DNA from: Candidatus Enterousia sp.
Lineage (GTDB): Bacteria; Pseudomonadota; Alphaproteobacteria; Rs-D84
Direction of reading: 5' to 3'
NCBI GenBank assembly: GCA_045613785.1
Contig: JAZLBQ010000001.1
Coordinates: 2,571 to 66,570 of the forward strand
DNA: 64,000 nucleotides
The notes under the pieces were generated by a model that worked only from the letters and a program-made list of their open reading frames with translations, searched no databases and was not told where the DNA came from. The position numbers and the translations under genes are program-made. Below are positions 4,601-23,110 of the stretch, piece by piece; the first letter of the stretch is position 1, and every line of letters starts with the position of its first letter.

Positions 4601-5337
4601 ATGTTGTGTATAAGTCTGGTAATTGGTCTTTTGGTGGACGTGTCTTTTCAGGTGCAATCACAGATGAGGGGCTGTTAGAAAATGATCCGACAATTTCTGC
4701 CCAGTATATGCCTGCAAAGTTAGGATTGATGAACGGTGGACAGTCAACAATTGCATGGGAAAATGAAAAATTCAGTTTTGCAGGTAATTTTGGTGCTGCT
4801 TATGAAACAAATACATTGTTGGGGGCATGGACAGATGGACTGTTGAATTTGGGAAATGGTCAGACAATGTATGTGGATTTTGTTGGACAGTATAATTTTG
4901 CTGATATGGCTGAATTGACAGCACGAGCAACTTTTGCACAGACGATGTCTGATGTTGCCGGTGATTTTGTTTTGGGTATGTCTGATGTTTATTCAAATGC
5001 ATTTGCATTGGGGGTAAATTTTGGTGCCTTTGAATTTGCTGTGTCTCAGCCGTTGGCTATTACACGTGGGAATTTACAATATGCGTATGCTGACTATGAT
5101 GTTGTAGAAGTGGATAAAAACAAATATGAATTAAAGGTTGTTGATGCGTATGTTGCAGATTTAGATCTGCGGCCTGAAAAACGTGAAGTCCGTTTTGCAG
5201 GAACGTATCGTCATAATTTTGGTCAATTTACAGATGCTGCGTTTGGATTTATTTATAGGGTGAATCCAAATAATACAGATGATTTTGGAGATGAATCAAT
5301 ATTTATGATGAAGTTATCACATCGCTTGGGAATATAA
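1630..5337 (+). CDS. autotransporter-like outer-membrane protein: ankyrin repeats + degenerate subtilase (S8)-like domain + C-terminal beta-barrel
   Basis: The ATG at 1630 gives signal peptide MKFIRFLAFSLFFAPFAASAA; the track start at 1609 is TTG. An ankyrin-like segment reads LLAAAKAADIQQVQSLVNAGADINFVDSTG..NNDVRAAQILQMYGADASKCD. The region GPTAEMATAAAAGAVASLKGAFDYMSNPQI..FGYGLINLERAMTP is homologous to the Ser-motif region of the S8 protein at 51467..53332 but lacks the Ser. The last ~350 aa have an alternating beta-strand pattern. Confidence 0.7.
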   Translation: MKFIRFLAFSLFFAPFAASAASSDFMMAAQLLAAAKAADIQQVQSLVNAGADINFVDSTGVSIVCTALMNNDVRAAQILQMYGADASKCDRQIKQFNNRNKPRASGGLFSGLSSVQGITLAAAGAAVVVGGLLLLTDVFDPGNDNDAASSDGNRPDNNPDDNTDQSAVAYLSVPYSPAYLGLDGKITTSDETYRANLTLWDPTAGSALRQADFNYFRPQVQAENNYVIDGLYLPMQNYLLMMHGYSAFANEYMGQGIFRDTATRNPILVGNSATGGRPVIAGLVTDNGVSPVGALDRSGGIVYAISAAADSATYLVDKFTNFNNPTSDGLGTEIVGFDFSGNGTAMNLFADSYDNALGKIVAGWEAGGRTDGDLIGFVPNGRLGIFRTGGGKYWQDLVSPLEGEVLGTVVNGDGADENAIDVGDTITFGGKTYLISLAVADSTIVNPTITINGTTYKLPSNSTLLKGVCSSSVEGECDDVSDIAIYLGDDGAYYVNTTGTNSVDNVLMVNGGNIYAKKELVDADYKNFQALYNARTVSDVLANVSVIDAARGNDYLTIADVPGLFDLTSASKEEVFAALINSAYDKNNSDINSQGMYAHRMFNNYTAGSPILLMPAGEFQWTGGAAKYATFENYAPLLYDGNLEHMFMTIVAVQHTGGTAGAGSIAGYGNGTGDSYGPLRLSVWQDYNGTLEDASDDIVYMSRKCGVAGVGLNGIDPWCFAAAGPTAEMATAAAAGAVASLKGAFDYMSNPQIFILMALTADGYLLGTDSTGGVFTKDALVGYLKNMYSLPSEYYEDTLTGDAYLQAFADVFGYGLINLERAMTPNKKIYFFDGTNIVSAGGNAYWRAAQNTVFRPSSVLNIRGATIRAPFFDVLESVDGSMSLPRVWENEFAFGTNDKRGLYMGDVLGELKTRRDTEQRTQVGALGVSMRFSERAYVDNLNGLDNLNLDFQSGKWNFAASYQRYLTDGASRFDGTANPVLGLVSNAVVSDVVYKSGNWSFGGRVFSGAITDEGLLENDPTISAQYMPAKLGLMNGGQSTIAWENEKFSFAGNFGAAYETNTLLGAWTDGLLNLGNGQTMYVDFVGQYNFADMAELTARATFAQTMSDVAGDFVLGMSDVYSNAFALGVNFGAFEFAVSQPLAITRGNLQYAYADYDVVEVDKNKYELKVVDAYVADLDLRPEKREVRFAGTYRHNFGQFTDAAFGFIYRVNPNNTDDFGDESIFMMKLSHRLGI

Positions 5338-5364
5338 AAAAATCCCCCAAAAGGGGATTTTTTT
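5336..5364 (+). terminator. rho-independent terminator (TCCCC/GGGGA family)
   Basis: AAAAAAATCCCCC-AAAA-GGGGATTTTTTT, immediately after the stop codon. Confidence 0.85.
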
Positions 5365-5419
5365 ATTGATTTTTGTTGTTATCTCTTTACTATTGTTTCG
5401 CAATTAAAGGATAAGAATA

Positions 5420-5848
5420 ATGGATATTAGTTTTAAGACAGTTGTAGAATATGTGAAAAATTTGTTCCCTGGTGCAGCCCCTGTTCAAATTAGCACGAAT
5501 CCAGAGTTGGATGCGGCTACGTTATTAAGAATTTCATCAAATAATTTGTATTTAAAGGCTAGAAATGGTAATCATTATTGGTATTGCTTTGTCGATGATG
5601 ATAATTTGCCAATGGCAAGATATTTGCTGAAAAGTAATGGTGTTAATGTTTCAAAACATTTTAGTCATTATAATCGGCCTTTTTATTCGACGTCAGCACA
5701 ACCGGTTTTACGTGTCAGGGTTTCTATATTGAACAAGAATCCTAAGGCTAAGAATTTTGTTGATTTGGTTATGAAACGCAAGGTGCTGAATTTTTCAGAT
5801 GAATGTGTTATGAAACATATGAATTCTGTAAGGCAAAATATGAAATAA
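5420..5848 (+). CDS. hypothetical basic cytoplasmic protein
   Basis: 142-aa ORF with an AAGGA RBS 7 nt upstream and a terminator directly after. No recognisable motif. Confidence 0.6.
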   Translation: MDISFKTVVEYVKNLFPGAAPVQISTNPELDAATLLRISSNNLYLKARNGNHYWYCFVDDDNLPMARYLLKSNGVNVSKHFSHYNRPFYSTSAQPVLRVRVSILNKNPKAKNFVDLVMKRKVLNFSDECVMKHMNSVRQNMK

Positions 5849-5874
5849 AAAATCCCCAAATCGGGGATTTTTTT
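5847..5874. terminator. bidirectional terminator (TCCCC/GGGGA family)
   Basis: AAAAAATCCCC-AAATC-GGGGATTTTTTT between convergent genes. Both stop codons abut its A and T tracts. Confidence 0.85.
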
Positions 5875-5878
5875 GTTC

Positions 5879-6595
5879 TTATTCAGTTTTGAAATATTGT
5901 TCTTTTTGTTGTTGAGATAGGCGGAACATTTCATCAAAAATTGCGTCGGCATCCGCCATTGTAGTTGGGATGTCTTGTGTGGCATTTTGAATGTCTGTGC
6001 CGTTCAGAACAATTATGCGGGCCGGCAATAAATCACGTCCGCCATTGCAATCAATATAATATTCGTTCGGATTGTAATACTTGCCATAACAGCGACCGTT
6101 TTCAATAGCAATAAATCCGTCGTTTGCCAGAACTTCGCATGTTGGCTGAGTGTCATAGGTTATTTCGCCGTTTGCCAATGTTTCATCAGGTTTGATCAAA
6201 ATACCGTTGCACCATACTGGGACATATTTGCCGTTTACAGATGCCATTGCACCATCTTCGGCAGTTTTACGGCGGCCAAAGCAGTCGCCATCGGCACCCA
6301 GTAAATCTGTGTCAAAGTCAGCGTTTATTCCTGTGCCCTTGGCGATTTCAGCACGCCCCATAGGGACAGCGTCACGACCGCCAGACGTTAGTGCGTCAGG
6401 ACAAATCAGTTTTAAACCACGACAGTTGCTGGTGGCGTCCCACATTTCTGTGTCAAAACCAATGCCCATTGATGAATAGCAGTTCGTTGGACTTAGTCGG
6501 CAAATGGTTGGTTGCAGCCACCATGGTGTCGTGGCAGCATTTCCAGAAGCAATGCTGAATATTGATAATAGTGAAAGTGCCAATATTTTTTTCAT
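5879..6595 (-). CDS. secreted cysteine-rich protein (hypothetical), co-oriented 31 nt downstream of 6627..9344
   Basis: The internal ATG at 6595 gives signal peptide MKKILALSLLSIFSIASGNAA. The mature part has 12 Cys. No known motif. Confidence 0.7.
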   Translation of the reverse strand: MKKILALSLLSIFSIASGNAATTPWWLQPTICRLSPTNCYSSMGIGFDTEMWDATSNCRGLKLICPDALTSGGRDAVPMGRAEIAKGTGINADFDTDLLGADGDCFGRRKTAEDGAMASVNGKYVPVWCNGILIKPDETLANGEITYDTQPTCEVLANDGFIAIENGRCYGKYYNPNEYYIDCNGGRDLLPARIIVLNGTDIQNATQDIPTTMADADAIFDEMFRLSQQQKEQYFKTE

Positions 6596-6626
6596 AGTTC
6601 TCTCTTTTGATTCTATTTTATCAGAT

Positions 6627-9344
6627 TTAATTTGTTGGTTCAACTGTTGAAGTTTCTTCTGTCCATACTGCGTGCAGATTTACAAATGTTGACAAGTTGT
6701 ATATTTCCTCATATTCAAGAGTGTTTTTGATACATTGGCCGTTATTGTTGTAGTATTGGGTTTTATCCCCATTGTTCGGGTTTATGTAGAAATAACCTTG
6801 GAATTTATATGCTTCATCTTCGCACTCAGGAATCTCAACTGTTTCTGGTAGTTCTTCTTGGTGTTTAAGGTTTGCACCTGTGATGTTTACGGCTTTTTTG
6901 ACCGCTTGGCAGGTTTTCTCGTCTGTGTTCACAAAACTAACATTGATTGTGCTGCCTGAATTGTTGCTGGGGGTTGTGATGGTTGTGGTAGTTGTGTCAA
7001 CGGCACAGAATCCCCATTTGGTGTTTGCAGATGTTTCGTCATAGAATTTTTTGAATAATTCTTGACCTGTGGTGTCGTGCGTATCGTCGCCGGTTTTGTC
7101 TGTCCAGACCGTATCAACCCACAGTCCGCCCAGGCGTTCGCATTCGGCAGATAATGTGTTTGCCATTTCTGTGCGGATTTTGTCCATGACAATATTGATG
7201 TCTTGTAAAACGGTTGCGGGCAGGGCGTTTTTGGATTCTGATGGACGGACGCAGGCCTGTATTGCATAGCGTGCAATTTTGTGATACAGACTGCCAATAT
7301 AGTCTGTTCCACATTTGTCATTCTCGGTATCAGTGCTGGAATAAAGTGGTTCTTTGTTGGCTGTTCCGCCTGGACAGTATGAGTCTTTGGGACATGGTGT
7401 GCAGTTGTTGTTTTTCTTTGGTGTGCCGTCATATTCCCCATTTTGGTCTGTCATGTAGTAGCCAGGTTTGCAAGATGTGTATTTTATCAGTTCTGGACAT
7501 GCGTATATCTGTGTGATGTTTGATGTTTGTGTTGTAATGCTTTCAAATGCGGAACCACCACTGTTGATGTTTTGGGTTATCAAGTTGCATTGGTGGATTG
7601 ATGCATACATTTTGTCACCAGGTGCGTATGTTCGACAGGCGTATGGATAGGCGTGCAGGGTGTCGCTGCTGGGGACGGCACACAGGTCATGTGCGTAATC
7701 TTGTAATGTGGCCAGGCATTGGTCGGCAATGCGTTGGCTGGTTATGTCGTGCATCGCGGTAAGCAGTTCTGTCATGCCGTGTGAGCCGCCACCATATAAA
7801 TTACTGCAAGCGTCTAATTTTTCTTGGCACATTTCTTCGGATAATTCCAAACGTTGGCCTAGTAGTAATTGGTCTTTGACGTTGCTAAAATCTTTTAATG
7901 ATTTTGTTTGTTCGTCATAGCATTTTGTGACGATTTCAAAACAGTTGTTTTTTACCTGGCGAACACGTTCTTGTTGATTTTGGTAGATTTCCGCAATCGC
8001 TTGACGCATGAATTCGTCCCAAACTTCGTCCGATAAATCACGGCATGTGTCCAGGGATTGTTCGGCAAATTTTCGTTTGGAATTTAATGTTGCAACAAAT
8101 AGACGGTTTGTTTGGTTGTTTAAAACATCGCCAGATAATGATATTTGTGTTTCAAGTTTGTAAAAGTCAGGACTGTAAATCGGTTCGCCTGTTGTGTAGT
8201 TTAGATAGCGGCCTGTTACGTCAAGACAGTGAACGTAGTTTGGACCGCATGCTAATTCTGATGTTATGTCTGAACGGACGTTGGCGACACAATCATTGAT
8301 TGAAGTGGAATTGTGGTTGTTGTAATTTTCCAAACGTGCCAGGTTCATTTCACGTTCAGCAGCACGAATTGTGCTGTTGGCTGTGTTTAATTTGTCGTCA
8401 AGGTCATTTAATAATATCGAACAATCGTTTTCAATATACATCCCATATGCAGTTGTCACCATTGTCTGGGTGGCTGTGTCGGGGCATTTGTCGATTGTAA
8501 TTTCTGCACATTGGGCGTGAACTGCGTTGTATAAGGCTTCGCCTGTAAGGTTGCTGATGTTTGCACCGCCCATTAAATCGGTTGTTGCCCAGATTGAATT
8601 TATGTCGCCTGCGATATCTAATTTGCCCTGGGTCGATAATGATTGCGATTTCGTTTTTGATAAAACGTCCCTGATGCCAGCAAGTTGTGATGCACTGCCA
8701 GATGTGTCATTGGTAATTGATTGGGTGAATTCGCCAGTCGATGCAGAAAGCATTGCTTTGACTTCGGCCTTGGTTTTGTCAATTACTTCTAGGTTCAGGT
8801 TCTTGAAATCTTGTAATTGGTCGGCGGCTTGGGATAATGCACGTTCTCGTGATTGGATTTCAGGTAATTTTGTCGAACATATACAGCGACGATATGTGTC
8901 GTTGGCTATGCCACAGAACTGATCCATACAGGTAAAGTATGCGTCACGGCATGTGTTGTAGCCAGTGCCAAATGTGTTCGATTGAGTCGTGTTCATCGTA
9001 ATCGTTGCACGAGCAGGACGAATGGCACTGCGTGCAGAATTGGTGCGGTTCGCAGTTGTTCGAATTTTGTTGCCACTGATTGCACTTCGTGCAGTAGATA
9101 CTGTTTTTGTAGTTTGTGCTGTTGTTGCTGTGCGTGAATTACTGCGGTTCGTTGTCGCTGTGCGTGAAACAGTGCGATCAGACGTGGTGCGTGCCGTTGT
9201 TGTTTTTGTTGGGGGTGTTGTTTGAACTTGCGTTCGTGATGTTGTGCTTGTGTTACGGACAGGGCTTTTTTCACTGCGAACAGCGGCGTTGGCAAAACCA
9301 ACACCTAGCAATAGTGCTAGAATTGAAATGTTTATCCTTTTCAT
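6627..9344 (-). CDS. giant secreted Cys-rich/coiled-coil protein, CMDxFC family, with Thr/Arg-rich N-terminal low-complexity region and a CxxCP module
   Basis: Start moved to the ATG at 9344 (MKRINISILALLLGVGFANA signal peptide). The longer track ORF would overlap infA and its terminator. Family box TCRDAYFTCMDQFCGIANDTYRRCICS. Also contains CKPGYYMTDQNGEYDGTPKKNNNCTPCPKDSYCPGG. Confidence 0.8.
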   Translation of the reverse strand: MKRINISILALLLGVGFANAAVRSEKSPVRNTSTTSRTQVQTTPPTKTTTARTTSDRTVSRTATTNRSNSRTATTAQTTKTVSTARSAISGNKIRTTANRTNSARSAIRPARATITMNTTQSNTFGTGYNTCRDAYFTCMDQFCGIANDTYRRCICSTKLPEIQSRERALSQAADQLQDFKNLNLEVIDKTKAEVKAMLSASTGEFTQSITNDTSGSASQLAGIRDVLSKTKSQSLSTQGKLDIAGDINSIWATTDLMGGANISNLTGEALYNAVHAQCAEITIDKCPDTATQTMVTTAYGMYIENDCSILLNDLDDKLNTANSTIRAAEREMNLARLENYNNHNSTSINDCVANVRSDITSELACGPNYVHCLDVTGRYLNYTTGEPIYSPDFYKLETQISLSGDVLNNQTNRLFVATLNSKRKFAEQSLDTCRDLSDEVWDEFMRQAIAEIYQNQQERVRQVKNNCFEIVTKCYDEQTKSLKDFSNVKDQLLLGQRLELSEEMCQEKLDACSNLYGGGSHGMTELLTAMHDITSQRIADQCLATLQDYAHDLCAVPSSDTLHAYPYACRTYAPGDKMYASIHQCNLITQNINSGGSAFESITTQTSNITQIYACPELIKYTSCKPGYYMTDQNGEYDGTPKKNNNCTPCPKDSYCPGGTANKEPLYSSTDTENDKCGTDYIGSLYHKIARYAIQACVRPSESKNALPATVLQDINIVMDKIRTEMANTLSAECERLGGLWVDTVWTDKTGDDTHDTTGQELFKKFYDETSANTKWGFCAVDTTTTTITTPSNNSGSTINVSFVNTDEKTCQAVKKAVNITGANLKHQEELPETVEIPECEDEAYKFQGYFYINPNNGDKTQYYNNNGQCIKNTLEYEEIYNLSTFVNLHAVWTEETSTVEPTN

Positions 9345-9414
9345 CCGTATATATTCTGTGTTTATTTTATCAAAAATATGTGCTGATAACAAGCAAAATG
9401 AAATTGTTTTATTA

Positions 9415-9446
9415 AAATAAAAAACCGCCTTTTGGCGGCGTTTTTT
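9415..9446 (-). terminator. rho-independent terminator of infA
   Basis: Minus-strand hairpin CGCCGCC-AAAA-GGCGG followed by a T run. It overlaps the infA stop codon. Confidence 0.8.
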
Positions 9447-9693
9447 ATTGGTTTGTTGTTTCCCCCGTAGGACGATTGCGTTCAACGAATGTTATGCGTC
9501 CTTTGTCCAGGTCGTATGGGGTCATTTCAACACGAACACGTTCGCCAACGTTTACCCAAATGCGAGCCTTACGCATTTTGCCGCATACGGTCGCCAAAAT
9601 TTCATGTCCGTTTTCTAGTTTTACACGGAACATTGTGTTAGGTAATTTGTCTTCGACTGTGCCAGTGAAAACGATTACATCATCTTTTGCCAT
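9445..9693 (-). CDS. infA: translation initiation factor IF-1
   Basis: 82 aa, with [57 protein letters not shown]. This is the canonical IF-1 S1-fold sequence. Confidence 0.95.
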
Positions 9694-9827: not shown

Positions 9828-11981
9828 ATGAAAATTAGAGTCTTGACTGCGTTATTGGCGTTGGTTCCAGGTGTGGCAGTGGCTGCAACCCGTGATGAAA
9901 CAGCACGTATTGGTGTAAATCGTGTCGCTGCTGCTGGTGTGCGTGCACCAACAATGGCTGTGAATATGTCGCCAAATATGAGCGTTGATGTTTCTGTGCC
10001 TGCAAAGAAGGAAGATAAAAATAATTCTGTCGTGGTTCAGCCAGGTGGTGATAAGCCAAGTGGTGGTGATGATTCTGGTGAAGGTAAAGAGCCTGTTATA
10101 AATGTAAATTGTCGTGAGGCATATCGGGCTTGTATGGATGAGTTTTGTTTGTTAGATGAGTCCGAAGGTTATCGTTGTGCTTGTTCGTCTAATATCAATA
10201 AGTCGAAAGATTTAATCAAGGAAATCCAAAAAATTCAAGAAGAGGCGGATAAGTTATATACCGAAGGTGTAGAACGGGAAAATTTGGGGGCAAAAGCACG
10301 CTTGGTCTTTGGTGAAAGTGAGGCGGCTAAGAAAAGTTCTCGTGTGTCGGGGCTTAGTTTCTCGGAGTGGTTGAATTCTGGGGCGATAGATGATGAAGCC
10401 TTGGATACTGATAATGATATTGGTGACGGTTTGTATGCGATGGCTTCTGAATTCTGCTCTGCGGAATTAGAGGGGTGTGCTGATAAAGCTGAAATGGAAG
10501 AGATGTTGTATTCTCGTCAGATTGTTGCAGACTGTAAATCATTTAATTCTTATTTGTCAGAACAGAAAATAAATGCCCAGGCAAATAAACGCACTGCAGA
10601 GGCCGCAGTTCGTCAGGCACGTCTGGCGATGCTGGATACGACTGATAAATATAATCGTGGTGAATGTTTGTTGGCGTATCGGTCCTGTATCGCAGACAAA
10701 GGTGGTTGTGGGGCGAATTTTGAAAACTGTTTAGATGCGGATTTGTTGGGGCGTCGCGCGTATGCCTGTGAAAATGTTTTAGATCAGTGTATGGCGGTCA
10801 GAAATTATGTTTTGCAAGACTGGGAAGCAGAATCAGAATCAATCTTGGTAGATGCGGCAAAGTATGCCGATAAATATCGTCGTCAGACTTGTTTAGCACA
10901 AATTCAGGTTTGTTTGGAAGATGGCTGTTCGACAGGAACTAATTCTGCGTGTTTGACTGATGTCAATGTCGCAGCAGGTGTTTGTCCAATTATTGATGAA
11001 TGTAATGCAATAATCCCTGGTTTAAAAAGTGTAGTAAATGACAAATTAGGTTATCTGCGGACACAATTCTGTCAAAACGATGTTGATGCGTGCTTGCGTG
11101 ATAAGTGCGGTGAAAACTTTACTGCACCAGAGTGTGTCGGTAAAAAAACTTCTGAGATAATCGCAATGTGTCCACAGACAATGTTCCCATCATGCAAAAA
11201 TGAAACTCAGTTTGATATTATTGTGTCGGCTGCTGTTTTGCAGATGGATTATCAGATGTTGCAAGGGTGCGTAAATTATTTTGGCGAACAACTGGGTAAG
11301 GTTTGTGGCACGGATATGGCGTGCTTGCCAACTGATGATGTTGTTGCTGGCTTGATGGAAATTCCTGATTCAGAACAGGGAATGGCAGACTTGCGTGTTA
11401 CGGTTCGTGATAATTCTAAGGCGGCGGTTAATGAATTCTTTAAGCAATTTGAAAAAGATATTACTGTTTCCGCTTGTGTAGATGCAAAAAAACCAGCAGG
11501 TCGCAAGAATTTAGGAGAAAATGTATTTAATACTGCAAAGTTGATTGCTGAAATTGGTGCAGAAAATCGTGCAATGCGTGAACTGGAAGCAAAGATTGCA
11601 GAGTTGTCTCGTCAGCAGGATATAGAAGAGGCCGAAGCAAATTGTTATGCGACATATAAGGTGGAAACACCAGATAAGTCGAGTAAAAATTATAGCTATG
11701 TTCGTAGCGTTGCCTTTGAACCAAGTTTAAGAAATTGTCATGTTTGCCGTATGCAGCAGGTCTGTGAAAAGGGTGGTGAATCCAAGGGAGCAGCTGGTCT
11801 GAAAGGTGCAGCAGGTGGATTGTCAGCTGGGGCTGCGGCAGGAACTATGGTTATGCCTGGCTGGGGAACAGCAATCGGTGGTGTCATCGGTGCAGTCGGT
11901 GGATTGTTCGCAGGACGTAGTGGTGCAGGTGAACAAGAGTTCTGTCAGGAAATCGAAAGTTGCGAAGATATAAATATGTAA
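9828..11981 (+). CDS. giant secreted Cys-rich/coiled-coil protein, CMDxFC family (glycine-zipper C-terminal segment)
   Basis: GGAG RBS and signal peptide MKIRVLTALLALVPGVAVAA. Family box NCREAYRACMDEFCLLDESEGYRCACS. More than 40 Cys. C-terminal GWGTAIGGVIGAVGGLFAG, then ..CEDINM. Confidence 0.85.
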   Translation: MKIRVLTALLALVPGVAVAATRDETARIGVNRVAAAGVRAPTMAVNMSPNMSVDVSVPAKKEDKNNSVVVQPGGDKPSGGDDSGEGKEPVINVNCREAYRACMDEFCLLDESEGYRCACSSNINKSKDLIKEIQKIQEEADKLYTEGVERENLGAKARLVFGESEAAKKSSRVSGLSFSEWLNSGAIDDEALDTDNDIGDGLYAMASEFCSAELEGCADKAEMEEMLYSRQIVADCKSFNSYLSEQKINAQANKRTAEAAVRQARLAMLDTTDKYNRGECLLAYRSCIADKGGCGANFENCLDADLLGRRAYACENVLDQCMAVRNYVLQDWEAESESILVDAAKYADKYRRQTCLAQIQVCLEDGCSTGTNSACLTDVNVAAGVCPIIDECNAIIPGLKSVVNDKLGYLRTQFCQNDVDACLRDKCGENFTAPECVGKKTSEIIAMCPQTMFPSCKNETQFDIIVSAAVLQMDYQMLQGCVNYFGEQLGKVCGTDMACLPTDDVVAGLMEIPDSEQGMADLRVTVRDNSKAAVNEFFKQFEKDITVSACVDAKKPAGRKNLGENVFNTAKLIAEIGAENRAMRELEAKIAELSRQQDIEEAEANCYATYKVETPDKSSKNYSYVRSVAFEPSLRNCHVCRMQQVCEKGGESKGAAGLKGAAGGLSAGAAAGTMVMPGWGTAIGGVIGAVGGLFAGRSGAGEQEFCQEIESCEDINM

Positions 11982-12003
11982 TCTGTTTTTACGGAGAGAG
12001 TTT

Positions 12004-14508
12004 ATGAAAAGAAATATGACTGTTTTATGTTCTGTGTTGTGTGCCCTGGCAATGTTGCCAGGGAACAATGCGTTTGGAGCAACCATCAAAAAAACGACAA
12101 AGCAGTCGGCAATTCAAAAGGGAACTACTGTCAGAGCAAAAACTTCTGCGAATGGGTTGTATGATCAGGCGTGTTATGATGCATATTATGGATGTATGGA
12201 TCAATTTTGTATCTCTGAAAATGAATCAGGTGGCAGTTGTGCATGCAGCGATTTAAATCAGGGCTATAATGAACAGTTGTTGGATATTCAAAAAACTTTG
12301 GCCGAGGCAGAACGTGTCGCAACTGAAGAAGTAGAAAAGGTAAAACTTGGGGCAAATGCTGATATTGTATTTACAGGGACACGTAAATATGATGAAAATG
12401 GTAATTTGCTAGATGTTGATGAAATTGAAACTGAAACAGCGTCTAAGGAAAAAAAACGTGCCGATTTAATGGCGTTGTGGGATGCTAATTTAGGCGAAGA
12501 AGATGAAGATGTCTTTGCTAATGATGTGCTAGATATCGCAGATTTAACTGGTGATGCATTGTATGCAGCTGCTGAAGAGATTTGTTTGGCTCAGGTGCCT
12601 GATTCTTGTGCAAAAGATATGACTTTGTTGAAAAATATGTATTCTCGACAAATTGTTTCGGATTGCAAGGGGTTCGAAAATAGTATTGCACAGAAAAAAG
12701 CAGAGGCTGATTCTGCATTGGCACAGGCAAATGCTGATGTAAGAAGTGCATTAAAGGAATCGCTGGATGCGTCAAACAAGTATGATTTAGGGCAGTGTAT
12801 GGTTCAATTTAAGAACTGTATGAAAACAGATGATGCATGTGGTGAAAATTGGGAAAACTGTGTGTTCACTGTTGCGTCTGAAAATATGCAAAATAATATC
12901 GCAAAAAGCACCGCAGGAACAACAATCGCAACTGTGAATAAATATGATATCACAGAATCTACAATGGAAATTCTAAATTCAAAACGCACTATTTGTGAAA
13001 ATATCCTGGGGCAGTGTGTGAAGGTTCGTGATATGGTTTGGCCTGCTTTCCTGCGTGAGGCTGCACCAACAATCAAGGTGGCAGAAAGTGCGGCAGAATC
13101 TAAATTCCGTCAATCTTGTCTGACAAATATTTCTGGCTGTATTCAAAAGGCTTGTCGTGATGATATTGTCGGACGGGGCGTTGATACAATGGACGCTTGT
13201 CTGTCACGACCAGATATGGTGCGTAGTTTCTGTAAGGTTGAAATCGACCCGTGTGAACGTATGGAACCGTTGATTTGGGGGTATGTAAAAGATAAATTAG
13301 CAGCAATGCGTGTTGATGTTTGCACAAATGAAGTAAAAGAGTGTTTTACAGCAGAAACACGTTGTGGTGAAAATTTCCAGAACTGTATTGGTATGGATTA
13401 TGATTATATTCACGATATTTGTCCAATCGATAGTTTGGTTGTTTGCAAGGCTAATAATCCAGAATTTTCAATGGATGATTTGGATTCTATGTTGATGGGG
13501 CTGTATCTGAATATTGATAATTCAGCATTAGATCAATGTCAAGAACTGGTCGATCGCAAGATGGCAGAAATATGTGGTAGCACAACTGACTGTAATCGAT
13601 TTGCTAGCGATGATACAATTGGAACGGGCAGTTTGCGTTCTCAGAAAGACGGCACAGTTTATCGTGTAACTGGTATGATTTCTTTTGGTTCTATTAAGAT
13701 GGGTGATGCATCAGGACGAATGCTTGATGAGGGAAAGGATGATGCCATAAAGTTGGGGCCGGGTGAAATCGGTGTTGCTGAATATTTGCAGCAAATTCGT
13801 GATCGTAATGTAGGCGTTCAAAATGCAGATGGTATTATTTCAAGTATCGAGGAAGAATTGAATAATATCGCAGGAACAATCAATCGGACAATTGAAATGA
13901 TTGAATCTGACCCTGAAATTCAGTTCTGTGTTAGTGGGCGTGATTTGTCGCAAATTACAGGTAAAAAGGGTAAAACGACGGCTCGTTTCCCAAATCTGTT
14001 GAATCAGGTTAAAATGCAGATTGCGATTGCTGCACTGCGTCAGGCCCAGGATAATTATAATGCAAAATTTAATACCGCTGTTGCAGAGGCAACAAAAGAT
14101 GCATCTGCGGATATTGCACAATATATGTGTCATAAGATGGCGGAAGTAGGTGCAACAACGTTGAAAAGTCCAAATGTTGATTTGGCACCACCATATGCAA
14201 TCAGTTATGATGTTGGCACAGGACTTGTGACAGAAGATTTAACAACCGGTGGACATGCTGTTCAGGATCTGGCCAAGGTTAATTTCAAAAATGGTGGATA
14301 TCTGGGTGGTGCAAAAATGGATATGAATTCGGGGACCAAGGAAACCTCGGCTGTGTTTAATCGTGAGACAAGAACTTGTCATGTTTGCACAACAATAGTA
14401 ACACAAAGTTGTAAAACTACAGGCAGTTCGTCGTGGTTCCATAATAGTCGCAAGATTGACTGTAAAACAAATGATCCGATTGAAAAATGTGAAGATATTC
14501 CAATGTAA
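12004..14508 (+). CDS. giant secreted Cys-rich/coiled-coil protein, CMDxFC family (tandem paralogue)
   Basis: Lies 22 nt after the previous gene and has a signal peptide. Family box ACYDAYYGCMDQFCISENESGGSCACS. Colinear with 9828..11981, for example YSRQIVSDCKGF vs YSRQIVADCKSF and CGENWENC vs CGANFENC. Ends ..CEDIPM. Confidence 0.85.
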   Translation: MKRNMTVLCSVLCALAMLPGNNAFGATIKKTTKQSAIQKGTTVRAKTSANGLYDQACYDAYYGCMDQFCISENESGGSCACSDLNQGYNEQLLDIQKTLAEAERVATEEVEKVKLGANADIVFTGTRKYDENGNLLDVDEIETETASKEKKRADLMALWDANLGEEDEDVFANDVLDIADLTGDALYAAAEEICLAQVPDSCAKDMTLLKNMYSRQIVSDCKGFENSIAQKKAEADSALAQANADVRSALKESLDASNKYDLGQCMVQFKNCMKTDDACGENWENCVFTVASENMQNNIAKSTAGTTIATVNKYDITESTMEILNSKRTICENILGQCVKVRDMVWPAFLREAAPTIKVAESAAESKFRQSCLTNISGCIQKACRDDIVGRGVDTMDACLSRPDMVRSFCKVEIDPCERMEPLIWGYVKDKLAAMRVDVCTNEVKECFTAETRCGENFQNCIGMDYDYIHDICPIDSLVVCKANNPEFSMDDLDSMLMGLYLNIDNSALDQCQELVDRKMAEICGSTTDCNRFASDDTIGTGSLRSQKDGTVYRVTGMISFGSIKMGDASGRMLDEGKDDAIKLGPGEIGVAEYLQQIRDRNVGVQNADGIISSIEEELNNIAGTINRTIEMIESDPEIQFCVSGRDLSQITGKKGKTTARFPNLLNQVKMQIAIAALRQAQDNYNAKFNTAVAEATKDASADIAQYMCHKMAEVGATTLKSPNVDLAPPYAISYDVGTGLVTEDLTTGGHAVQDLAKVNFKNGGYLGGAKMDMNSGTKETSAVFNRETRTCHVCTTIVTQSCKTTGSSSWFHNSRKIDCKTNDPIEKCEDIPM

Positions 14509-14510
14509 AT

Positions 14511-14543
14511 AAAAAAGCAGGCCCTTTTGGGTCTGTTTTTTTT
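14511..14543 (+). terminator. rho-independent terminator
   Basis: GCAGGCCC-TTTT-GGGTCTGT followed by T8. Confidence 0.8.
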
Positions 14544-14623
14544 ATGTATTTTTTCCTGGACAATTTTAGATGTTGTTATGTTATAATCGTATTACAAGAA
14601 CGATTTAACCAAAGGGGACGATT

Positions 14624-15010
14624 ATGAAAAAACTTTCAATGGCGGTGTTGGTTGGTGTTATGTCTGTTGGTGCGGCGTTTGCTGAATTTGAAGGGCCAGC
14701 AGCACCTGATGCAGTTGCAACAAATCCTAAGGGTGGTTTTGTTGGCGGTGCAGAAACAATTGTGACGGTAAAGCAAGTAAATGAAATGCGTGATGATGTT
14801 CCTGTGATTGTCAAGGGGCATATTGTTCAGCGTATGGGTGATGAAAAGTATTTGTTTGAGGATTCGACTGGTTCAATTGCTGTGGAAATTGATGAAGATA
14901 ACTGGCGTGGTCAAACGGTAACACCTGCTGATACAGTTAAATTGTATGGCGAGGTTGACCGTGGATTATTCAAAACAGAAATCGATATTGATTATGTTGA
15001 AAAGTTGTAA
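14624..15010 (+). CDS. periplasmic OB-fold stress protein, YgiW/YdeI (BOF) family
   Basis: 128 aa with a signal peptide. GGFVGGAETIVTVKQV..DDVPVIVKGHIVQRMGDEKYLFEDSTGSIAVEIDEDNW..VKLYGEVD is the typical YgiW pattern. Confidence 0.8.
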   Translation: MKKLSMAVLVGVMSVGAAFAEFEGPAAPDAVATNPKGGFVGGAETIVTVKQVNEMRDDVPVIVKGHIVQRMGDEKYLFEDSTGSIAVEIDEDNWRGQTVTPADTVKLYGEVDRGLFKTEIDIDYVEKL

Positions 15011-17779: not shown

Positions 17780-18859
17780 TTAGTCTATTTTGACAGGAAC
17801 TATCGTTTGCTTCTTGGCTGTGTCCAGTGAGTGATATTGGAACGGAACAGATGCAAAATTTATCTCTTTCATGTCCAGACTGCGGACTGTGCGATTATAC
17901 ATCGTATGATAGTATATAACCATATCTTTTAGGTCTGTGGCAACAGTCCACTGGGTGGCCGAAGGCATATTGTTTGGGGCAGTACCTACTGCAAACTGAA
18001 CGCCCAGGGGAACGTCAAAGTTGTTCAGGATATGAAAGGCCTGTTGAATTGTGTCGTATGCATTATCTTGCTGTAAAGAGTAGGTTTTTAAGAATGCTGC
18101 ACGGACAAAGCGTGATGGTGGTGTAAAGTCGCCTGGCAAGCCCAAGAATCCAGAACCAGAACCGAATGAACGCAGTTTAATTGGACCGAACTCGGTTGGG
18201 CCAGCACCACCAGGATGCAGGTTTACATAGTTGTTCAGGTTCGTTAGTTGCCATTGGAATCCTGGGGAATTGGTCAGGACGCCGACTTCGTTTTCGTAAA
18301 AGTTTGGAATGCCATTTACAATTTCCAAGACAACTTGGCGACCATTGGGTTCGGTTATTCGCCAATGGACCGTGCCGGCATTTGGATCAACGTTTATGAT
18401 ACGGACATCATTGATGGCTGCTTTGACTTGGTCGATTGTGGCAAAGCGTGATAATATCCAAGATACAACCTGGAAATCAGCCAAGGATATGTCTTTGTTG
18501 GCTTCGTTATATGGTTCGTAACTGCCGTAGTTTGGAAAGTAAAACAGGGCGGCAGACAGACCGGCTTCGTTTGTGCCGTCGATTATAAATTCAGGCTGTT
18601 CGGTTGCGATGCCGGCATATCCATAGAGTGATGTAAATGACAGGCCGTTCATTGTGCCGTCTGGCAGTAATGATTGGGCAGCATGCCCACGTGGAACAAT
18701 GACATACATATTGTTGTTTTCAGAACCTGACCAGTCCATTGTTCGGGCAACAACAGTTGTGTTGTCTAGTGATTTTAATGTGATGCCTGTGCAGGCGTTT
18801 GATGATTGAATCAGTGCAAGGCACATGGTTAGTGTGGATAAAAATAGTAAATGTTTCAT
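17780..18859 (-). CDS. choloylglycine hydrolase family protein (bile-salt hydrolase / penicillin V acylase-like Ntn hydrolase), secreted
   Basis: Signal peptide ending ..IQSSNA, followed by the nucleophile Cys (CTGITLKS..VVARTMDW). The length and motifs are typical of linear amide C-N hydrolases. Confidence 0.85.
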   Translation of the reverse strand: MKHLLFLSTLTMCLALIQSSNACTGITLKSLDNTTVVARTMDWSGSENNNMYVIVPRGHAAQSLLPDGTMNGLSFTSLYGYAGIATEQPEFIIDGTNEAGLSAALFYFPNYGSYEPYNEANKDISLADFQVVSWILSRFATIDQVKAAINDVRIINVDPNAGTVHWRITEPNGRQVVLEIVNGIPNFYENEVGVLTNSPGFQWQLTNLNNYVNLHPGGAGPTEFGPIKLRSFGSGSGFLGLPGDFTPPSRFVRAAFLKTYSLQQDNAYDTIQQAFHILNNFDVPLGVQFAVGTAPNNMPSATQWTVATDLKDMVIYYHTMYNRTVRSLDMKEINFASVPFQYHSLDTAKKQTIVPVKID

Positions 18860-22700: not shown

Positions 22701-23110
22701 TGGCCTGGGGTCAAATTGACCTGGGTTCCGCCATAGATTTTGTTTGTAAAGAAATCATCAACGCATATATAGCCGGCTTTGCCTTTGTATTGTTTGTCGC
22801 ATGCGTGATAAAATTTTATATTTGCTTTTTTAACCAGCGTATTTACAAATTTTTGACATTGTGATTTGCCGTCCGATTTTTTGATGTCCCAGCCAGCAAT
22901 TGCACAAATATTCCATAATTTTTGGGCGGATATACCAGTGCCATTGGATTGCTTTATTTGATTGTTATATTCGCTGATTACAGAAAATTGTTTTTCGGCT
23001 GGCACGAATTCTTTTACAACAGATTCCACCGTAGATGGATTTATGTGAATGTTTGCCAAACATGGTGTAATAAAAAACAGCGATAATAATGTCAGGGCTA
23101 TTTTTTTCAT
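19784..23110 (-). CDS. large membrane-spanning protein: Cys-rich ectodomain, Gly/Ala/Thr-rich TM region, ~500-aa C-terminal domain (hypothetical)
   Basis: The ATG at 23110 overlaps the upstream stop (ATGA) and gives signal peptide MKKIALTLLSLFFITPCLA. About 430 aa with >30 Cys come first. Next is ITMIVGGAIVGIVITVATVGTATAAVAGTA and a second hydrophobic segment. The long charged C-terminal domain contains the HENGGH motif. Confidence 0.75.
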   Translation of the reverse strand: MKKIALTLLSLFFITPCLANIHINPSTVESVVKEFVPAEKQFSVISEYNNQIKQSNGTGISAQKLWNICAIAGWDIKKSDGKSQCQKFVNTLVKKANIKFYHACDKQYKGKAGYICVDDFFTNKIYGGTQVNLTPGQTLAKEYARLKHNDTTGQCKGNFDKGTLDYTLMCTSHNQNAYYEFVFDDLEEPKDQIIKNSIQNAICRMYDAKPTTAGCAGGGTNVSGTATCWSASCAADSAKCAKINQSMAKFGYIAEYKNGKCEINFNTVTKQKDLKTAYGIDNFVFCHGIQVTNAPNVETYLKQYVAERAGVSESSVKCDSGFNTYTGTGCARNGITDFKDDIKTCRVGDNQIDFVFNDINEKWKKTVAGGVQGMSCIVTGGTYSGKRCIGLGEQQCEVLRKSNLKECPECKAAKWDDKTQSCVLPSSASAQNLQRGINITMIVGGAIVGIVITVATVGTATAAVAGTATATKSAIAFTAIETVGAGIEITSQLKINGIADNFLVESNKCKNATCAKKMLAENLQRMANVQNDMTDAEADAVDSELARLANLIPDDDEIWATMLVNGTDMADNKAGFWESWEPEQVWRAVGIGLQLASVITGITKWAISKSSRIAKSTAAIKQKFDAIIDIVERAQKDSLTGNWLILKRKIPQMRATDNLDDVEAVWRELHRKYAPRNQSLDDFKAMADNDLSKMQQMSKNWVSWDAPLNDESMKAIMNEARTNLPQVKKELDDFWRTAPDEVFDLYLDNPTEFARQYPKIEVLRSKMISYEHVLNHGFTGNYSTFNRDVRQIKRTAQEHIDEYKARYSQVEDYQNKLVEKGETTADEAKKAKRAGSERIRKLTTDKVLLDVGNTVQIERLDEIALLRADQIHDIIESDEWLKSMKQNWYSLTTDQKTIFAQEISNKLLEMNGIPRHRAPTIEAHKFTDNTVGAYYPKTNKTRIDFDEQQNYERFINTLAHENGGHAIDELNPNANALGAQLYDATKDLYGASDDAYRATPAEQTAYRIGDVASVVNSYEDYTDVGEALMLAVQRQGAVPYDRVTGKFSSYANVNSLAADLLDQNKSVSFLLNTEKEGYEDVAKTLMRTGIFDVQVFKEDPKYFEFMRK

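What the first reader, a model, noticed from the sequence alone, without database searches (positions are those of the whole stretch)
11736..14508. Conserved C-terminal CHVC ... CEDI[NP]M tail shared by the tandem paralogues
The two tandem family members diverge strongly in their last ~150 aa. Even so, both keep the nucleotide-identical TGTCATGTTTGC (C-H-V-C) about 80 and 43 codons before the end. Both also terminate in C-E-D-I-[N/P]-M-stop (..ESCEDINM and ..EKCEDIPM). The first copy additionally carries a glycine-zipper segment, GWGTAIGGVIGAVGGLFAG, between the two motifs. A conserved extreme C-terminus on otherwise diverged secreted proteins is the pattern expected for a sorting, anchoring or processing signal. 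I do not recognise this tail as a known sorting signal (not LPXTG, a T9SS CTD, PEP-CTERM, or an OMP terminal Phe).
Basis: seen in the sequence. Interest (0 to 1): 0.55.

Follow-up and report, generated by a model that had tools for sequence, protein, structure and literature searches.

The report
Disulfide-stapled C-terminal domain, not a sorting tag
The two shared motifs are most likely the two halves of one small disulfide-bonded end domain, found across a large uncharacterised family of secreted cysteine-rich proteins in reduced-genome gut alphaproteobacteria, and nothing found here shows it to be a stand-alone sorting signal.

Summary
ORF1 (9828-11981) and ORF2 (12004-14508) both carry CHVC and end in CEDI[NP]M.

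The tail is not private to this pair:
- About 240 orthologue clusters keep it.
- A 72-position profile of the C-terminal module matches 92 of 150 family representatives that are less than 50% identical to each other.

The family has about 950 such clusters. It has no Pfam, NCBIfam or PDB relative. It belongs to Candidatus Enterousia (order Rs-D84) and related uncultured Alphaproteobacteria.

Main result: the second Cys of CHVC and the Cys of CEDI are present together (34) or absent together (31), never alone. They switch jointly at least 9 times on a tree. The third and fourth Cys also covary (62 both, 3 neither). AlphaFold2 places the CHVC segment and the tail in beta-strands. In ORF1 both covarying pairs fall in exact antiparallel register.

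I conclude that the tail is the last strand of a disulfide-stapled mini-domain. ORF1's glycine zipper is an insertion in the loop closed by the third and fourth Cys.

About 30% of members continue past the final Met, often with Pro or Gly. No sorting enzyme or known sorting-signal model was found. A recognition role for the hydrophobic end, [IV]-x-[MF]-COOH, is not excluded.

The parts
9828..11981 (+). ORF1, 717 aa. It has a Sec-type signal peptide (MKIRVLTALLALVPGVAVA|A, judged by eye), and the mature protein has 36 Cys. This is the family member that carries the glycine-zipper insertion.
   Evidence: ORF list. 120 orthologue clusters at 74-100% identity. Cys count. AlphaFold2 model with mean pLDDT 74, helical over 95-609 and then beta.
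12004..14508 (+). ORF2, 834 aa. It has a signal peptide, and the mature protein has 36 Cys. This tandem paralogue has no hydrophobic insertion.
   Evidence: AlphaFold2 model with mean pLDDT 77.7, helical over 55-720 and then beta. The highest 19-residue Kyte-Doolittle hydropathy average outside the signal peptide is 0.91.
11691..11978 (+). C-terminal module of ORF1, residues 622-717. Order: strand 1 (YSYVRSVAFE), strand 2 (NCHVCRMQQVCEKG), inserted loop, last strand (QEFCQEIESCEDIN) and the terminal Met.
   Evidence: Predicted strands E622-631, E636-649 and E703-716. Module profile hit. Leave-clade-out profile hit.
11736..11765 (+). ORF1 CHVCRMQQVC, carrying Cys C1 (637), C2 (640) and C3 (646).
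   Evidence: C1 is invariant in the 106-sequence alignment. C2 covaries with C5 and C3 with C4.
11787..11915 (+). ORF1 Gly/Ala-rich glycine-zipper hairpin, residues 654-696, with a PGWG turn. It is inserted in the C3-C4 loop and is a candidate membrane-associating element.
   Evidence: Sequence. Sub-threshold Pfam glycine-zipper hits (13.3 bits against a cut-off of 25). Low-confidence helices, pLDDT 33-48. Highest 19-residue hydropathy average 1.31. Relatives carry much more hydrophobic inserts at the same position, with a shared P-x-x-G-W turn.
11937..11978 (+). ORF1 tail EFCQEIESCEDINM, with C4 (706) and C5 (712). It forms the last beta-strand, and the stop codon is at 11979-11981.
   Evidence: Register check: 646+706 = 640+712 = 1352. 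Net charge of the segment after the hydrophobic stretch is -6.
14329..14505 (+). C-terminal module of ORF2, residues 776-834.
   Evidence: Predicted strands E776-786, E791-806, E817-822 and E826-833, with pLDDT 62-83. Profile hits.
14377..14412 (+). ORF2 CHVCTTIVTQSC, carrying C1 (792), C2 (795) and C3 (803).
14413..14460 (+). ORF2 short polar C3-C4 loop (KTTGSSSWFHNSRKID). This is the position where ORF1 carries the glycine zipper.
   Evidence: Family alignment and coordinates.
14458..14505 (+). ORF2 tail DCKTNDPIEKCEDIPM, with C4 (820) and C5 (829). It forms the last two short strands, and the stop codon is at 14506-14508.
   Evidence: Orthologue tails are CED[IV]xM.
14511..14542 (+). Intrinsic-terminator-like hairpin with a T-run directly after ORF2. 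None lies between ORF1 and ORF2, which are separated by a 22-nt gap containing GGAGAGAG. The two genes are therefore probably co-transcribed.
6627..9344 (-). ORF3, a third paralogue. It shares the same N-terminal CRDAYFTCMDQFC signature, and its probable start is MKRINIS at 9344. It lacks the C-terminal module and instead has the subfamily ending ...TKWGFC followed by an extension. It sits in the conserved cluster with ORF1 and ORF2.
   Evidence: The module profile does not hit it even at E <= 10. Synteny in 72 of 80 loci. Start coordinate.

Best explanation
CHVC and CEDI[NP]M are two parts of one conserved C-terminal module of about 60-70 residues. The module is the end domain of a large, so far undescribed family of Sec-exported, fully disulfide-bonded proteins. 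These proteins are mostly alpha-helical, and mature ORF1 and ORF2 each have 36 Cys.

The module is a small, polar antiparallel beta-sheet. Its pattern is [KR]-E-x-x-T-x-F-N-x-x-T-x-x-C1-x-x-C2-x(5-7)-C3, then a loop, then C4-x-x-[WF]-x-x-P-x-x-x-C5-x-[DE]-[IV]-x-[MF].

Inferred wiring:
- C2 (second Cys of CHVC) bonds to C5 (the Cys of CEDI).
- C3 bonds to C4, closing the base of a variable loop.
- C1 pairs with an upstream invariant Cys.

The last six residues are therefore the end of the final beta-strand. That strand is pinned by a disulfide onto the CHVC strand. The [IV]-x-[MF] residues supply the hydrophobic face or cap of the strand.

In ORF2 the C3-C4 loop is short and polar. In ORF1 and many relatives it holds a glycine-zipper or hydrophobic helical hairpin (Ala/Gly-rich helix, P-x-x-G-W turn, second helix). 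That hairpin probably dips into a membrane. The disulfide 'clasp' then holds both ends of the hairpin together on the extracytoplasmic side.

Shown here: the motifs, their family-wide conservation, the Cys covariation and the predicted strands. Inferred: the disulfide connectivity, the membrane insertion and the topology. The biological role of the family is unknown. A surface or envelope complex formed with ORF3 and the neighbouring 254-aa Cys-rich protein is my guess.
For: 1. Family-wide module. A profile search finds 951 representatives at <=50% mutual identity. A 72-position module profile hits 92 of the best 150. Of those, 71 reach the profile's end.
2. Terminal residue. Among the 150 representatives the last residue is M in 36 and F in 15. 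The background frequencies are 2.9% and 2.5%. Position -3 is I/V/L/F and position -6 is C.
3. Covariation. C2 and C5 are both present in 34 sequences, both absent in 31 and discordant in 0 (Fisher p = 3e-19). C3 and C4 are both present in 62 and both absent in 3 (P0246, P0289, P0323), with 0 discordant. The same result came from the MAFFT alignment, where the three apparent exceptions are one-column shifts.
4. Repeated joint changes. On a neighbour-joining tree built only from the N-terminal ~760 residues, the joint C2/C5 state changes at least 9 times.
5. Structure prediction. In the ORF2 model the CHVC segment (791-806) and the tail (826-833) are beta-strands with pLDDT of about 80. In the ORF1 model, 636-649 and 703-716 are strands with the zipper between them. 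In ORF1, 646+706 = 640+712. Both covarying pairs therefore face each other in one antiparallel register.
6. Cys count. Both mature proteins have exactly 36 Cys.
7. Charge of the tail. The tail after the hydrophobic insert is acidic in 21 of 21 members, mean -3.6. This fits an extracytoplasmic location.
8. Independent detection. A leave-clade-out profile recovers both modules.
9. Restriction to the family. The tail occurs only on family members in 83 loci totalling 1.15 Mb.
Against: - No coordinates were available, so S-S distances in the models could not be measured. The disulfides rest on covariation and strand register alone.
- pLDDT in the module is moderate (62-83), and the whole-chain pTM values are only 0.44-0.49.
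- In ORF2 the two pair sums differ by one (1623 against 1624). In other subfamilies the C2-C3 and C4-C5 spacings differ (6 against 10), so bulges must be assumed.
- The Fisher tests are not corrected for phylogeny. The count of 9 changes comes from a rough neighbour-joining tree.
- A structural role does not explain why the chain so often stops exactly after M or F.
- The glycine zipper of ORF1 is only moderately hydrophobic (highest 19-residue hydropathy average 1.31). It misses all Pfam glycine-zipper cut-offs, so membrane insertion is unproven.
Confidence: 0.7

Rival explanations
1. The tail is a true C-terminal recognition or processing signal. The free [IV]-x-[MF]-COOH end would be read by a periplasmic PDZ-type protein, such as a C-terminal processing protease or a DegP/DegS-like protease. 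Alternatively a dedicated sorting enzyme would read it. The result would be targeting, tethering or trimming of the protein. Members with extensions would be cleaved after the Met.
For: - The terminal residue is strongly biased. It is M or F in 51 of 150 representatives, against about 5% expected.
- About 50 of 71 complete modules end exactly there.
- The hydrophobic-x-hydrophobic-COOH pattern resembles class II PDZ ligands (my own knowledge).
- The window encodes an S41 protease with a PDZ domain at 42220-43638.
- The [IV]-x-M ending is kept even in subfamilies that lack C2 and C5, for example QVIKM and QSIKM.
Against: - About 21 of 71 modules carry extensions of 1-39 residues. One apparent 106-residue case is doubtful.
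- Six or seven of these extensions begin with Pro, which is a poor residue immediately after a cleavage site for most proteases (plus general knowledge).
- The Cys of the tail behaves as a structural disulfide partner.
- The motif is restricted to one protein family in all the sequence examined.
- The S41 protease is a housekeeping gene 28 kb away.
- No protease, transpeptidase or transporter is syntenic in 80 related loci.
- No known sorting-signal model matches.
Confidence: 0.15
2. The C-terminal strands are an outer-membrane insertion signal. The tail would act like the OMP beta-signal or like a trimeric-autotransporter anchor, in which a helical stalk is followed by four C-terminal strands that oligomerise into a barrel.
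For: - The architecture is superficially similar: a long helical region, then 3-4 terminal beta-strands ending in a hydrophobic or aromatic residue.
- The genome makes classical autotransporters, one of which ends in ...FRGKF.
Against: - The strands are polar and rich in Cys.
- Positions -5 and -7 are E/Q/T and S/T/K rather than hydrophobic.
- The tails are strongly acidic.
- There is no Pfam hit to YadA_anchor, Autotransporter or any OMP family.
- Disulfide-stapled strands are not expected inside a membrane barrel.
Confidence: 0.05
3. CHVC...C...CEDIxM is a metal-binding or redox-active site. This could be a Cys/His/Met copper or zinc centre, or a thioredoxin-like CxxC.
For: Cys, His and Met are classical metal ligands, and C-x-x-C is a common metal or redox motif (my own knowledge). 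The motif is conserved in the close orthologues.
Against: - Across the family the His is replaced by K, R, T, E, S or L.
- The Met is replaced by F, Y, L or I.
- C2 is absent in 31 of 65 sequences, and always together with C5.
- These substitutions fit a disulfide plus a hydrophobic cap, not a ligand set.
- C1 and C2 do not covary, so they are not a CxxC pair.
Confidence: 0.03
4. The shared motifs are leftovers of a recent duplication or of gene conversion between the tandem copies, and have no functional meaning.
For: The two genes are adjacent and share an identical 12-nt string.
Against: - The tandem pair is present in 79 of 80 related loci.
- The copies are only 29% identical.
- The flanks of the 12-mer are diverged, and the identity has a chance probability of about 0.05 given the shared residues.
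- The module is conserved in relatives below 30% identity.
Confidence: 0.01

Closest known systems
Glycine zipper 2TM proteins: SlyB/PCP, YfgH, the Rickettsia 17-kDa antigen; Pfam PF05433, PF13488, PF13441
   Same: ORF1 residues 654-696 are two Gly/Ala-rich GxxxG-type segments joined by a PGWG turn. These outer-membrane lipoproteins have the same kind of two-helix zipper hairpin. Weak Pfam hits point to these families. The membrane role of SlyB and YfgH is described in bioRxiv preprints 10.64898/2025.12.22.696046 and 10.64898/2026.06.08.730324. I saw only their listing and abstracts.
   Different: All hits are below the curated cut-offs. ORF1 is not a lipoprotein. Here the zipper is an insertion inside a disulfide-closed loop at the end of a 700-aa helical Cys-rich protein. 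ORF2 lacks it altogether.
OMP C-terminal beta-signal, and the trimeric autotransporter (YadA-like) anchor
   Same: Both have a terminal hydrophobic or aromatic residue and a hydrophobic residue at -3. Both also have a helical stalk followed by a few C-terminal strands.
   Different: There is no alternating hydrophobicity further upstream. The strands are polar, acidic and rich in Cys. No barrel is predicted and no Pfam match is found.
Tripartite C-terminal sorting signals: LPXTG/sortase, PEP-CTERM/exosortase, GlyGly-CTERM/rhombosortase
   Same: Both involve a conserved short motif at the extreme C-terminus of secreted proteins. In ORF1-like members a hydrophobic segment lies nearby.
   Different: The order is reversed, with the hydrophobic segment before the motif. 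The end is acidic rather than basic. ORF2 has no hydrophobic segment. No NCBIfam model matches and no sorting enzyme was seen.
T9SS C-terminal domain
   Same: Both are folded beta-type C-terminal domains on otherwise diverse secreted proteins.
   Different: The T9SS domain is a 7-strand sandwich of about 80-100 aa in Bacteroidota. The module here has 3-4 strands in about 60 aa, is disulfide-stapled and occurs in Alphaproteobacteria. There is no TIGR04183 or TIGR04131 hit.
Disulfide cross-linked cysteine-rich envelope proteins of Chlamydia (OmcA/OmcB). This is an analogy drawn from my own knowledge.
   Same: Both are abundant Cys-rich exported proteins in a host-associated bacterium with a reduced genome. 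That bacterium also carries Pmp-type autotransporters.
   Different: There is no sequence or fold similarity. This is an analogy of lifestyle only and was not tested.

Membership tests
Sortase/exosortase/rhombosortase-type C-terminal sorting signals | A signature motif, followed by a transmembrane helix, followed by a basic cluster at the extreme C-terminus | tested here: not met
   ORF2 has no hydrophobic segment; its highest 19-residue hydropathy average is 0.91. Where a hydrophobic segment exists, it precedes the conserved motif. The terminal 12-27 residues are acidic in 21 of 21 members, mean -3.6.
Sortase/exosortase/rhombosortase-type C-terminal sorting signals | A match to a curated sorting-domain model (LPXTG, PEP-CTERM, GlyGly-CTERM, MYXO-CTERM and so on) | tested here: not met
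   The NCBIfam scan of ORF1, ORF2 and ORF3 at E <= 1 returned only irrelevant weak hits.
Sortase/exosortase/rhombosortase-type C-terminal sorting signals | A cognate sorting enzyme encoded in the genome | not testable with these tools
   Only a 64-kb window and 6-kb flanks in 80 related loci could be read. None was seen there. Whole genomes could not be scanned.
T9SS C-terminal domain | A match to TIGR04183 or TIGR04131, and a 7-stranded beta-sandwich of about 80-100 aa | tested here: not met
   There is no NCBIfam hit. The models show 3-4 strands over about 60 residues.
OMP beta-signal (BAM substrate) | A C-terminal aromatic or hydrophobic residue | tested here: inconclusive
   Among 150 representatives the last residue is M in 36, F in 15, L in 9, I in 7 and Y in 6. 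The end is hydrophobic, but Met dominates rather than Phe or Trp.
OMP beta-signal (BAM substrate) | Alternating hydrophobic residues at -3, -5 and -7, forming the last strand of a membrane beta-barrel | tested here: not met
   Position -3 is I/V/L/F, but -5 is E/Q/T and -7 is S/T/K. The models are helical with a small polar sheet. No OMP or autotransporter Pfam hit was found.
Trimeric autotransporter anchor (YadA_anchor) | A Pfam PF03895 match and four amphipathic transmembrane strands after a coiled coil | tested here: not met
   There is no Pfam hit at E <= 1. The strands are polar and contain Cys.
Glycine zipper 2TM / Gly-zipper_Omp (ORF1 insert only) | A score above the Pfam gathering threshold | tested here: not met
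   ORF1 scores 13.3 bits against 25 for PF13488 and 11.1 against 28.9 for PF13441. The best relative, P0354, scores 21.9 against 25.
Glycine zipper 2TM / Gly-zipper_Omp (ORF1 insert only) | Two GxxxG-rich helices joined by a tight turn and inserted in a membrane | tested here: inconclusive
   The sequence pattern is present: GAAGGLSAGAAAG..PGWG..AIGGVIGAVGGLFAG. The predicted helices have pLDDT of only 33-48. The highest 19-residue hydropathy average is 1.31. Membrane insertion was not tested.
CxxC metal-binding or thiol-redox motif | Both Cys of the CxxC, and any ligand His or Met, invariant | tested here: not met
   C2 is absent in 31 of 65 sequences, always together with C5. The His and the Met are freely substituted.
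Type I secretion C-terminal signal | No N-terminal signal peptide, a Cys-poor substrate, and an adjacent ABC transporter, membrane-fusion protein and TolC-like outer-membrane channel | tested here: not met
   Both proteins start with Sec-type signal peptides, judged by eye, and have 36 Cys. No transporter is present in the conserved cluster.
New C-terminal module of this family (defined here) | A profile match to the C1-x2-C2-x(5-7)-C3 ... C4 ... C5-x-[DE]-[IV]-x-[MF] module at the C-terminus of a protein that carries the N-terminal C-x3-[YF]-x2-C-M-D-x-F-C signature | tested here: met
   ORF1 and ORF2 both carry the N-terminal signature. They match the module profile. They also match a profile built without their own clades. 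ORF3 has the N-terminal signature but not the module.

The most novel reading that the evidence does not exclude
The four-gene cluster comprises the 254-aa Cys-rich protein, ORF3, ORF1 and ORF2. In this reading it encodes a disulfide-rich surface or envelope assembly specific to the reduced-genome Rs-D84 gut alphaproteobacteria. The [IV]-x-[MF]-COOH end of the module would then be a previously undescribed C-terminal docking or recognition tag in addition to a structural strand. It might tether the zipper-less ORF2 to membrane-anchored ORF1, or it might be read by a PDZ-type periplasmic factor.
Probability: 0.12. Interest if true: 0.6.

Novelty: new member of a known kind. Interest (0 to 1): 0.35.

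Why it matters
The result turns an apparent orphan sorting signal into a defined, testable structural unit. That unit is a roughly 60-residue domain with two inferred disulfides. Its closed loop can host a membrane hairpin.

The result also brings to light an unannotated family. It has about 950 clusters at 50% identity. It has no Pfam or NCBIfam model, no similar solved structure and no literature that I could find. Its members are among the largest exported proteins in Candidatus Enterousia (order Rs-D84). These uncultured gut bacteria have genomes below 1 Mb and are presumed to depend on partners (PMC12306168).

Such proteins are candidates for the cell-surface interface of these organisms. 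The inferred disulfide map and domain boundaries would guide construct design for expression and structure work.

For genome annotation, the practical message is that this tail should not be catalogued as a new sorting signal without evidence from mass spectrometry.

Tried and rejected
1. ORF3 as a third tail-bearing copy. MAFFT aligned its internal ...EIPECEDEAY to the CEDI tail. The module profile does not hit ORF3 even at E <= 10 with filters off. A close orthologue of ORF3 lacks that segment altogether. I treat the match as chance.
2. Gene conversion as the source of the identical 12-mer. Rejected.
3. Search for the module outside the family with a 25-sequence tail profile against 5.8 billion proteins. 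Only 8 candidates passed the word filter. The 4 hits are C-terminal fragments of family members. This search had low power and is not evidence of absence.
5. A genome scan with the 106-sequence alignment failed for lack of a conserved stretch. It was repeated with 10 sequences.
6. Pfam and NCBIfam scans of the three paralogues gave nothing above the cut-offs.
7. Window-wide Pfam annotation, looking for a linked protease, transpeptidase or transporter. It found only housekeeping genes: an S41+PDZ protease, an M23 peptidase, an S8 subtilase and a SurA-like protein. None is syntenic with the cluster.
8. Literature searches found nothing on this family.
9. Metal-binding, type I secretion, T9SS, BAM beta-signal and trimeric-autotransporter readings are rejected in the membership table.
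Full report
**What is in the window**

ORF1 (9828-11981, 717 aa) and ORF2 (12004-14508, 834 aa) are adjacent on the + strand. They are separated by 22 nt that contain a GGAGAGAG ribosome-binding site. A terminator-like hairpin follows ORF2 at 14511-14542, and none lies between the two genes.

The string TGTCATGTTTGC occurs only at 11736 and 14377. It encodes C-H-V-C at residues 637-640 of ORF1 and 792-795 of ORF2. The proteins end in ESCEDINM and EKCEDIPM. No other ORF in the window has either feature.

BLASTP gives 29% identity over the N-terminal ~485 residues (E = 2e-56). Beyond that it finds only tiny matches at CHVC and at the tail.

The nucleotide identity adds nothing. With the local codon usage, four identical codons for the same four residues have a probability of about 0.05. 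The flanking DNA is diverged, with 24 of 51 bases identical.

**Organism and family**

Close homologues come from MAGs named Candidatus Enterousia, Alphaproteobacteria or 'Rickettsiales'. Enterousia belongs to the uncultured order Rs-D84, whose gut-dwelling members have genomes below about 1 Mb (PMC12306168).

None of the three paralogues reaches a Pfam or NCBIfam cut-off. The third paralogue is ORF3, at 6627-9344 on the minus strand.

A profile search of 1.84 billion representatives at 50% identity finds 951 family members at E <= 1e-3 and 762 at E <= 1e-10. Of the 152 sequences examined, 140 share the N-terminal signature C-x3-[YF]-x2-C-M-D-x-F-C...G-G-R-C-x-C-S. No paper describing the family was found.

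**The tail is old and family-wide**

- All 120 ORF1 orthologue clusters (74-100% identity) end in CED[IV]NM and have C-H-x-C at -81.
- 119 of 120 ORF2 orthologue clusters end in CED[IV]xM.
- In the 80 best-matching loci from the species-representative genome collection, the arrangement is [254-aa Cys-rich protein <- ORF3 <- infA] [ORF1 -> ORF2 -> BOF]. It is complete in 42 loci, and ORF1 plus ORF2 are present in 79.

This removes the 'recent duplication' explanation.

Among the 150 best representatives, all below 50% mutual identity, many end in a recognisable common module. An example is WNYKETVTTTFN..T..CHKC....Q.C ... YC..W..P.E.C.DIQ[MF]. Their last residue is M in 36 and F in 15, against background frequencies of 2.9% and 2.5%. 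Position -3 is I/V/L/F, -4 is D/E and -6 is C.

A 72-position profile of the module hits 92 of the 150 representatives. A profile built only from 19 distant members, none ORF1-like or ORF2-like, still ranks ORF2's end (E = 3.9e-6) and ORF1's CHVC half (E = 5.5e-3) as the top two of 771 window ORFs.

**The two motifs are one structural unit**

I number the module's cysteines C1 to C5. In ORF1 they are residues 637, 640, 646, 706 and 712. In ORF2 they are residues 792, 795, 803, 820 and 829.

- C1 is invariant in the 106-sequence alignment.
- C2 is the second Cys of CHVC and C5 is the Cys of CEDI. They are present together in 34 and absent together in 31 of 65 non-redundant complete modules, and never one without the other.
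- The MAFFT alignment gave the same picture. Its three apparent exceptions are one-column shifts.
- C3 and C4 are present together in 62 and lost together in 3, again with no discordant case.
- On a neighbour-joining tree built only from the N-terminal ~760 residues, the joint C2/C5 state changes at least 9 times. The association is therefore not a single inherited event.

The simplest reading is two disulfides, C2-C5 and C3-C4, with C1 bonded to an upstream invariant Cys. Both mature proteins have exactly 36 Cys, which is consistent with full pairing.

**Structure predictions agree**

The ORF2 model (mean pLDDT 77.7) is helical from 55 to about 720. It ends with strands 776-786, 791-806 (TCHVCTTIVTQSCKTT), 817-822 and 826-833 (IEKCEDIP). 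pLDDT in this region is 62-83.

The ORF1 model (mean pLDDT 74.1) has strands 622-631, 636-649 (NCHVCRMQQVCEKG) and 703-716 (QEFCQEIESCEDIN). The Gly-rich segment between the last two strands is modelled as low-confidence helices.

In ORF1, 646+706 = 640+712 = 1352. Both covarying pairs are therefore cross-strand neighbours in a single antiparallel register. In ORF2 the sums are 1623 and 1624, which fits the break between its last two short strands. I could not obtain coordinates, so S-S distances remain unchecked.

**The glycine zipper is a loop insertion**

The alignment places ORF1's segment 654-696 in the C3-C4 loop (GAAGLKGAAGGLSAGAAAGTMVM-PGWG-TAIGGVIGAVGGLFAG). In ORF2 that loop is the 16 polar residues KTTGSSSWFHNSRKID.

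Many other members carry longer and much more hydrophobic inserts at the same place. Their highest 19-residue hydropathy averages are 1.9-2.9, against 1.31 for ORF1. These inserts share a P-x-x-G-W turn.

The 12-27 residues after the hydrophobic stretch are net acidic in 21 of 21 cases, mean -3.6. That is the opposite of the basic tail of sortase- or exosortase-type signals. It also argues against a cytoplasmic location.

Because these members keep C3-C4, and often C2-C5, both ends of the insert should lie on the same, oxidising side. This implies a re-entrant or two-helix hairpin rather than a single membrane span. This step is inference.

Pfam glycine-zipper families are hit only below their cut-offs.

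**Is it nevertheless a sorting signal?**

Points in favour:
- The chain ends exactly at the M or F in about 50 of 71 complete modules.
- The [IV]-x-M ending persists in subfamilies without C2 and C5.

Points against:
- About 21 of 71 modules continue for 1-39 residues, and one doubtful case continues for 106. The first extra residue is Pro in 6-7 and Gly in 5. This is what a domain boundary looks like, and Pro immediately after a cleavage site is unfavourable for most proteases.
- In 83 loci (1.15 Mb), all 164 ORFs of at least 150 aa with such a tail are family members. The five without the N-terminal signature are truncated or broken copies.
- No sorting-domain model matches.
- The neighbourhood contains no candidate enzyme in the window or in 80 related loci.
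- The window does encode a C-terminal processing protease (S41+PDZ, 42220-43638). It is a housekeeping gene 28 kb away.

An OMP-type beta-signal or an autotransporter-like anchor is unlikely. The strands are polar, acidic and rich in Cys, and positions -5 and -7 are not hydrophobic. A metal or redox site is unlikely because the His, the Met and C2 are freely substituted.

**Verdict**

Their best-supported meaning is structural. They are the two disulfide-linked halves of the C-terminal beta-module of a new family of Cys-rich exported proteins. ORF1 carries a membrane-type hairpin in the loop that the module closes.

A recognition role for the hydrophobic C-terminus cannot be excluded. I give it about 0.15.

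The family is undescribed, but the kind of thing is ordinary: a disulfide-stabilised extracytoplasmic domain with a glycine-zipper insert. The interest is moderate. It lies mainly in the family's size, its restriction to reduced-genome gut symbionts and the clean covariation signal.

Noticed in passing
window 5879-9344 (-) and 9828-15010 (+): A conserved divergent gene cluster is present in most of 80 related loci: [254-aa secreted Cys-rich protein <- ORF3 <- infA] [ORF1 -> ORF2 -> periplasmic BOF/OB-fold protein]. The arrangement is complete in 42 loci, and ORF1 plus ORF2 are present in 79. A terminator-like hairpin (9439-9424) and a promoter-like site (9392-9364) lie between infA and ORF3.
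   Followed up: partly
window 6627-9485 (-): ORF3 is a third paralogue. It has a Thr/Arg-rich low-complexity N-terminal region and a different subfamily ending (ECERLGG.W...FY.ET.AN.KWGFC). After that comes a lineage-specific extension of about 130 aa that is absent from a close orthologue in L001. The listed TTG start at 9485 would overlap infA. The real start is probably the ATG at 9344 (MKRINISILALLLG...).
   Followed up: partly
window 5879-6643 (-): This is a 254-aa secreted protein with about 12 Cys and no Pfam hit. Its start overlaps the end of ORF3 by 17 nt. It is conserved next to ORF3 in 69 of 80 related loci and may be a partner of the large Cys-rich proteins.
   Followed up: no
window 24591-28514 (+) and 1609-5337 (+): The first gene encodes a 1307-aa autotransporter with Chlamydia-type Pmp repeats (PF02415) and an Autotransporter beta-domain, ending ...IKFRGKF. 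The second encodes a 1242-aa secreted protein with a C-terminal region that looks barrel-like by eye but has no Pfam hit.
   Followed up: partly
window 19784-23128 (-): This gene encodes a 1114-aa protein with a signal peptide, a Cys-rich N-terminal half, a long hydrophobic Gly/Ala/Thr/Val segment (about residues 440-500) and no Pfam hit. It is another large uncharacterised envelope protein. In L001 a further unrelated 720-aa Cys-rich protein (4048-6210) sits near the cluster.
   Followed up: no
window 39299-40372 (+) and 42220-43638 (+): An M23 peptidase and a C-terminal processing protease (S41 with a PDZ domain) lie 1.8 kb apart, with a phosphotransferase-family gene and a Fic-domain gene on the opposite strand between them. 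The S41 protease is the only PDZ protein seen in the window. It is a possible reader of hydrophobic C-termini, but nothing links it to the family.
   Followed up: no
window 17780-18859 (-): This gene encodes a choloylglycine (bile-salt) hydrolase family protein (PF02275, E = 1e-64). It fits a gut habitat.
   Followed up: no
locus L064 (CAVGNU010000011.1): This contig is labelled 'Bacteroides fragilis isolate ... cleanbin'. It nevertheless carries a full-length ORF2 orthologue at 65% identity. It is probably mis-binned or mislabelled Enterousia-like DNA.
   Followed up: no
P0245, P0266, P0336, P0342, P0358, P0383, P0389 (family representatives): In these members the module's final ...I-x-M is followed by short, unconserved polar extensions that start with Pro or Gly, for example KCEDIQM|GSGAVTPSAPTPAP.... 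Whether these are trimmed is unknown.
   Followed up: partly
P0246, P0289, P0323 (family representatives): These are the three representatives in which C3 and C4 are lost together while C2 and C5 are kept. They are natural 'single-disulfide' variants and would be useful controls for any disulfide mapping.
   Followed up: yes
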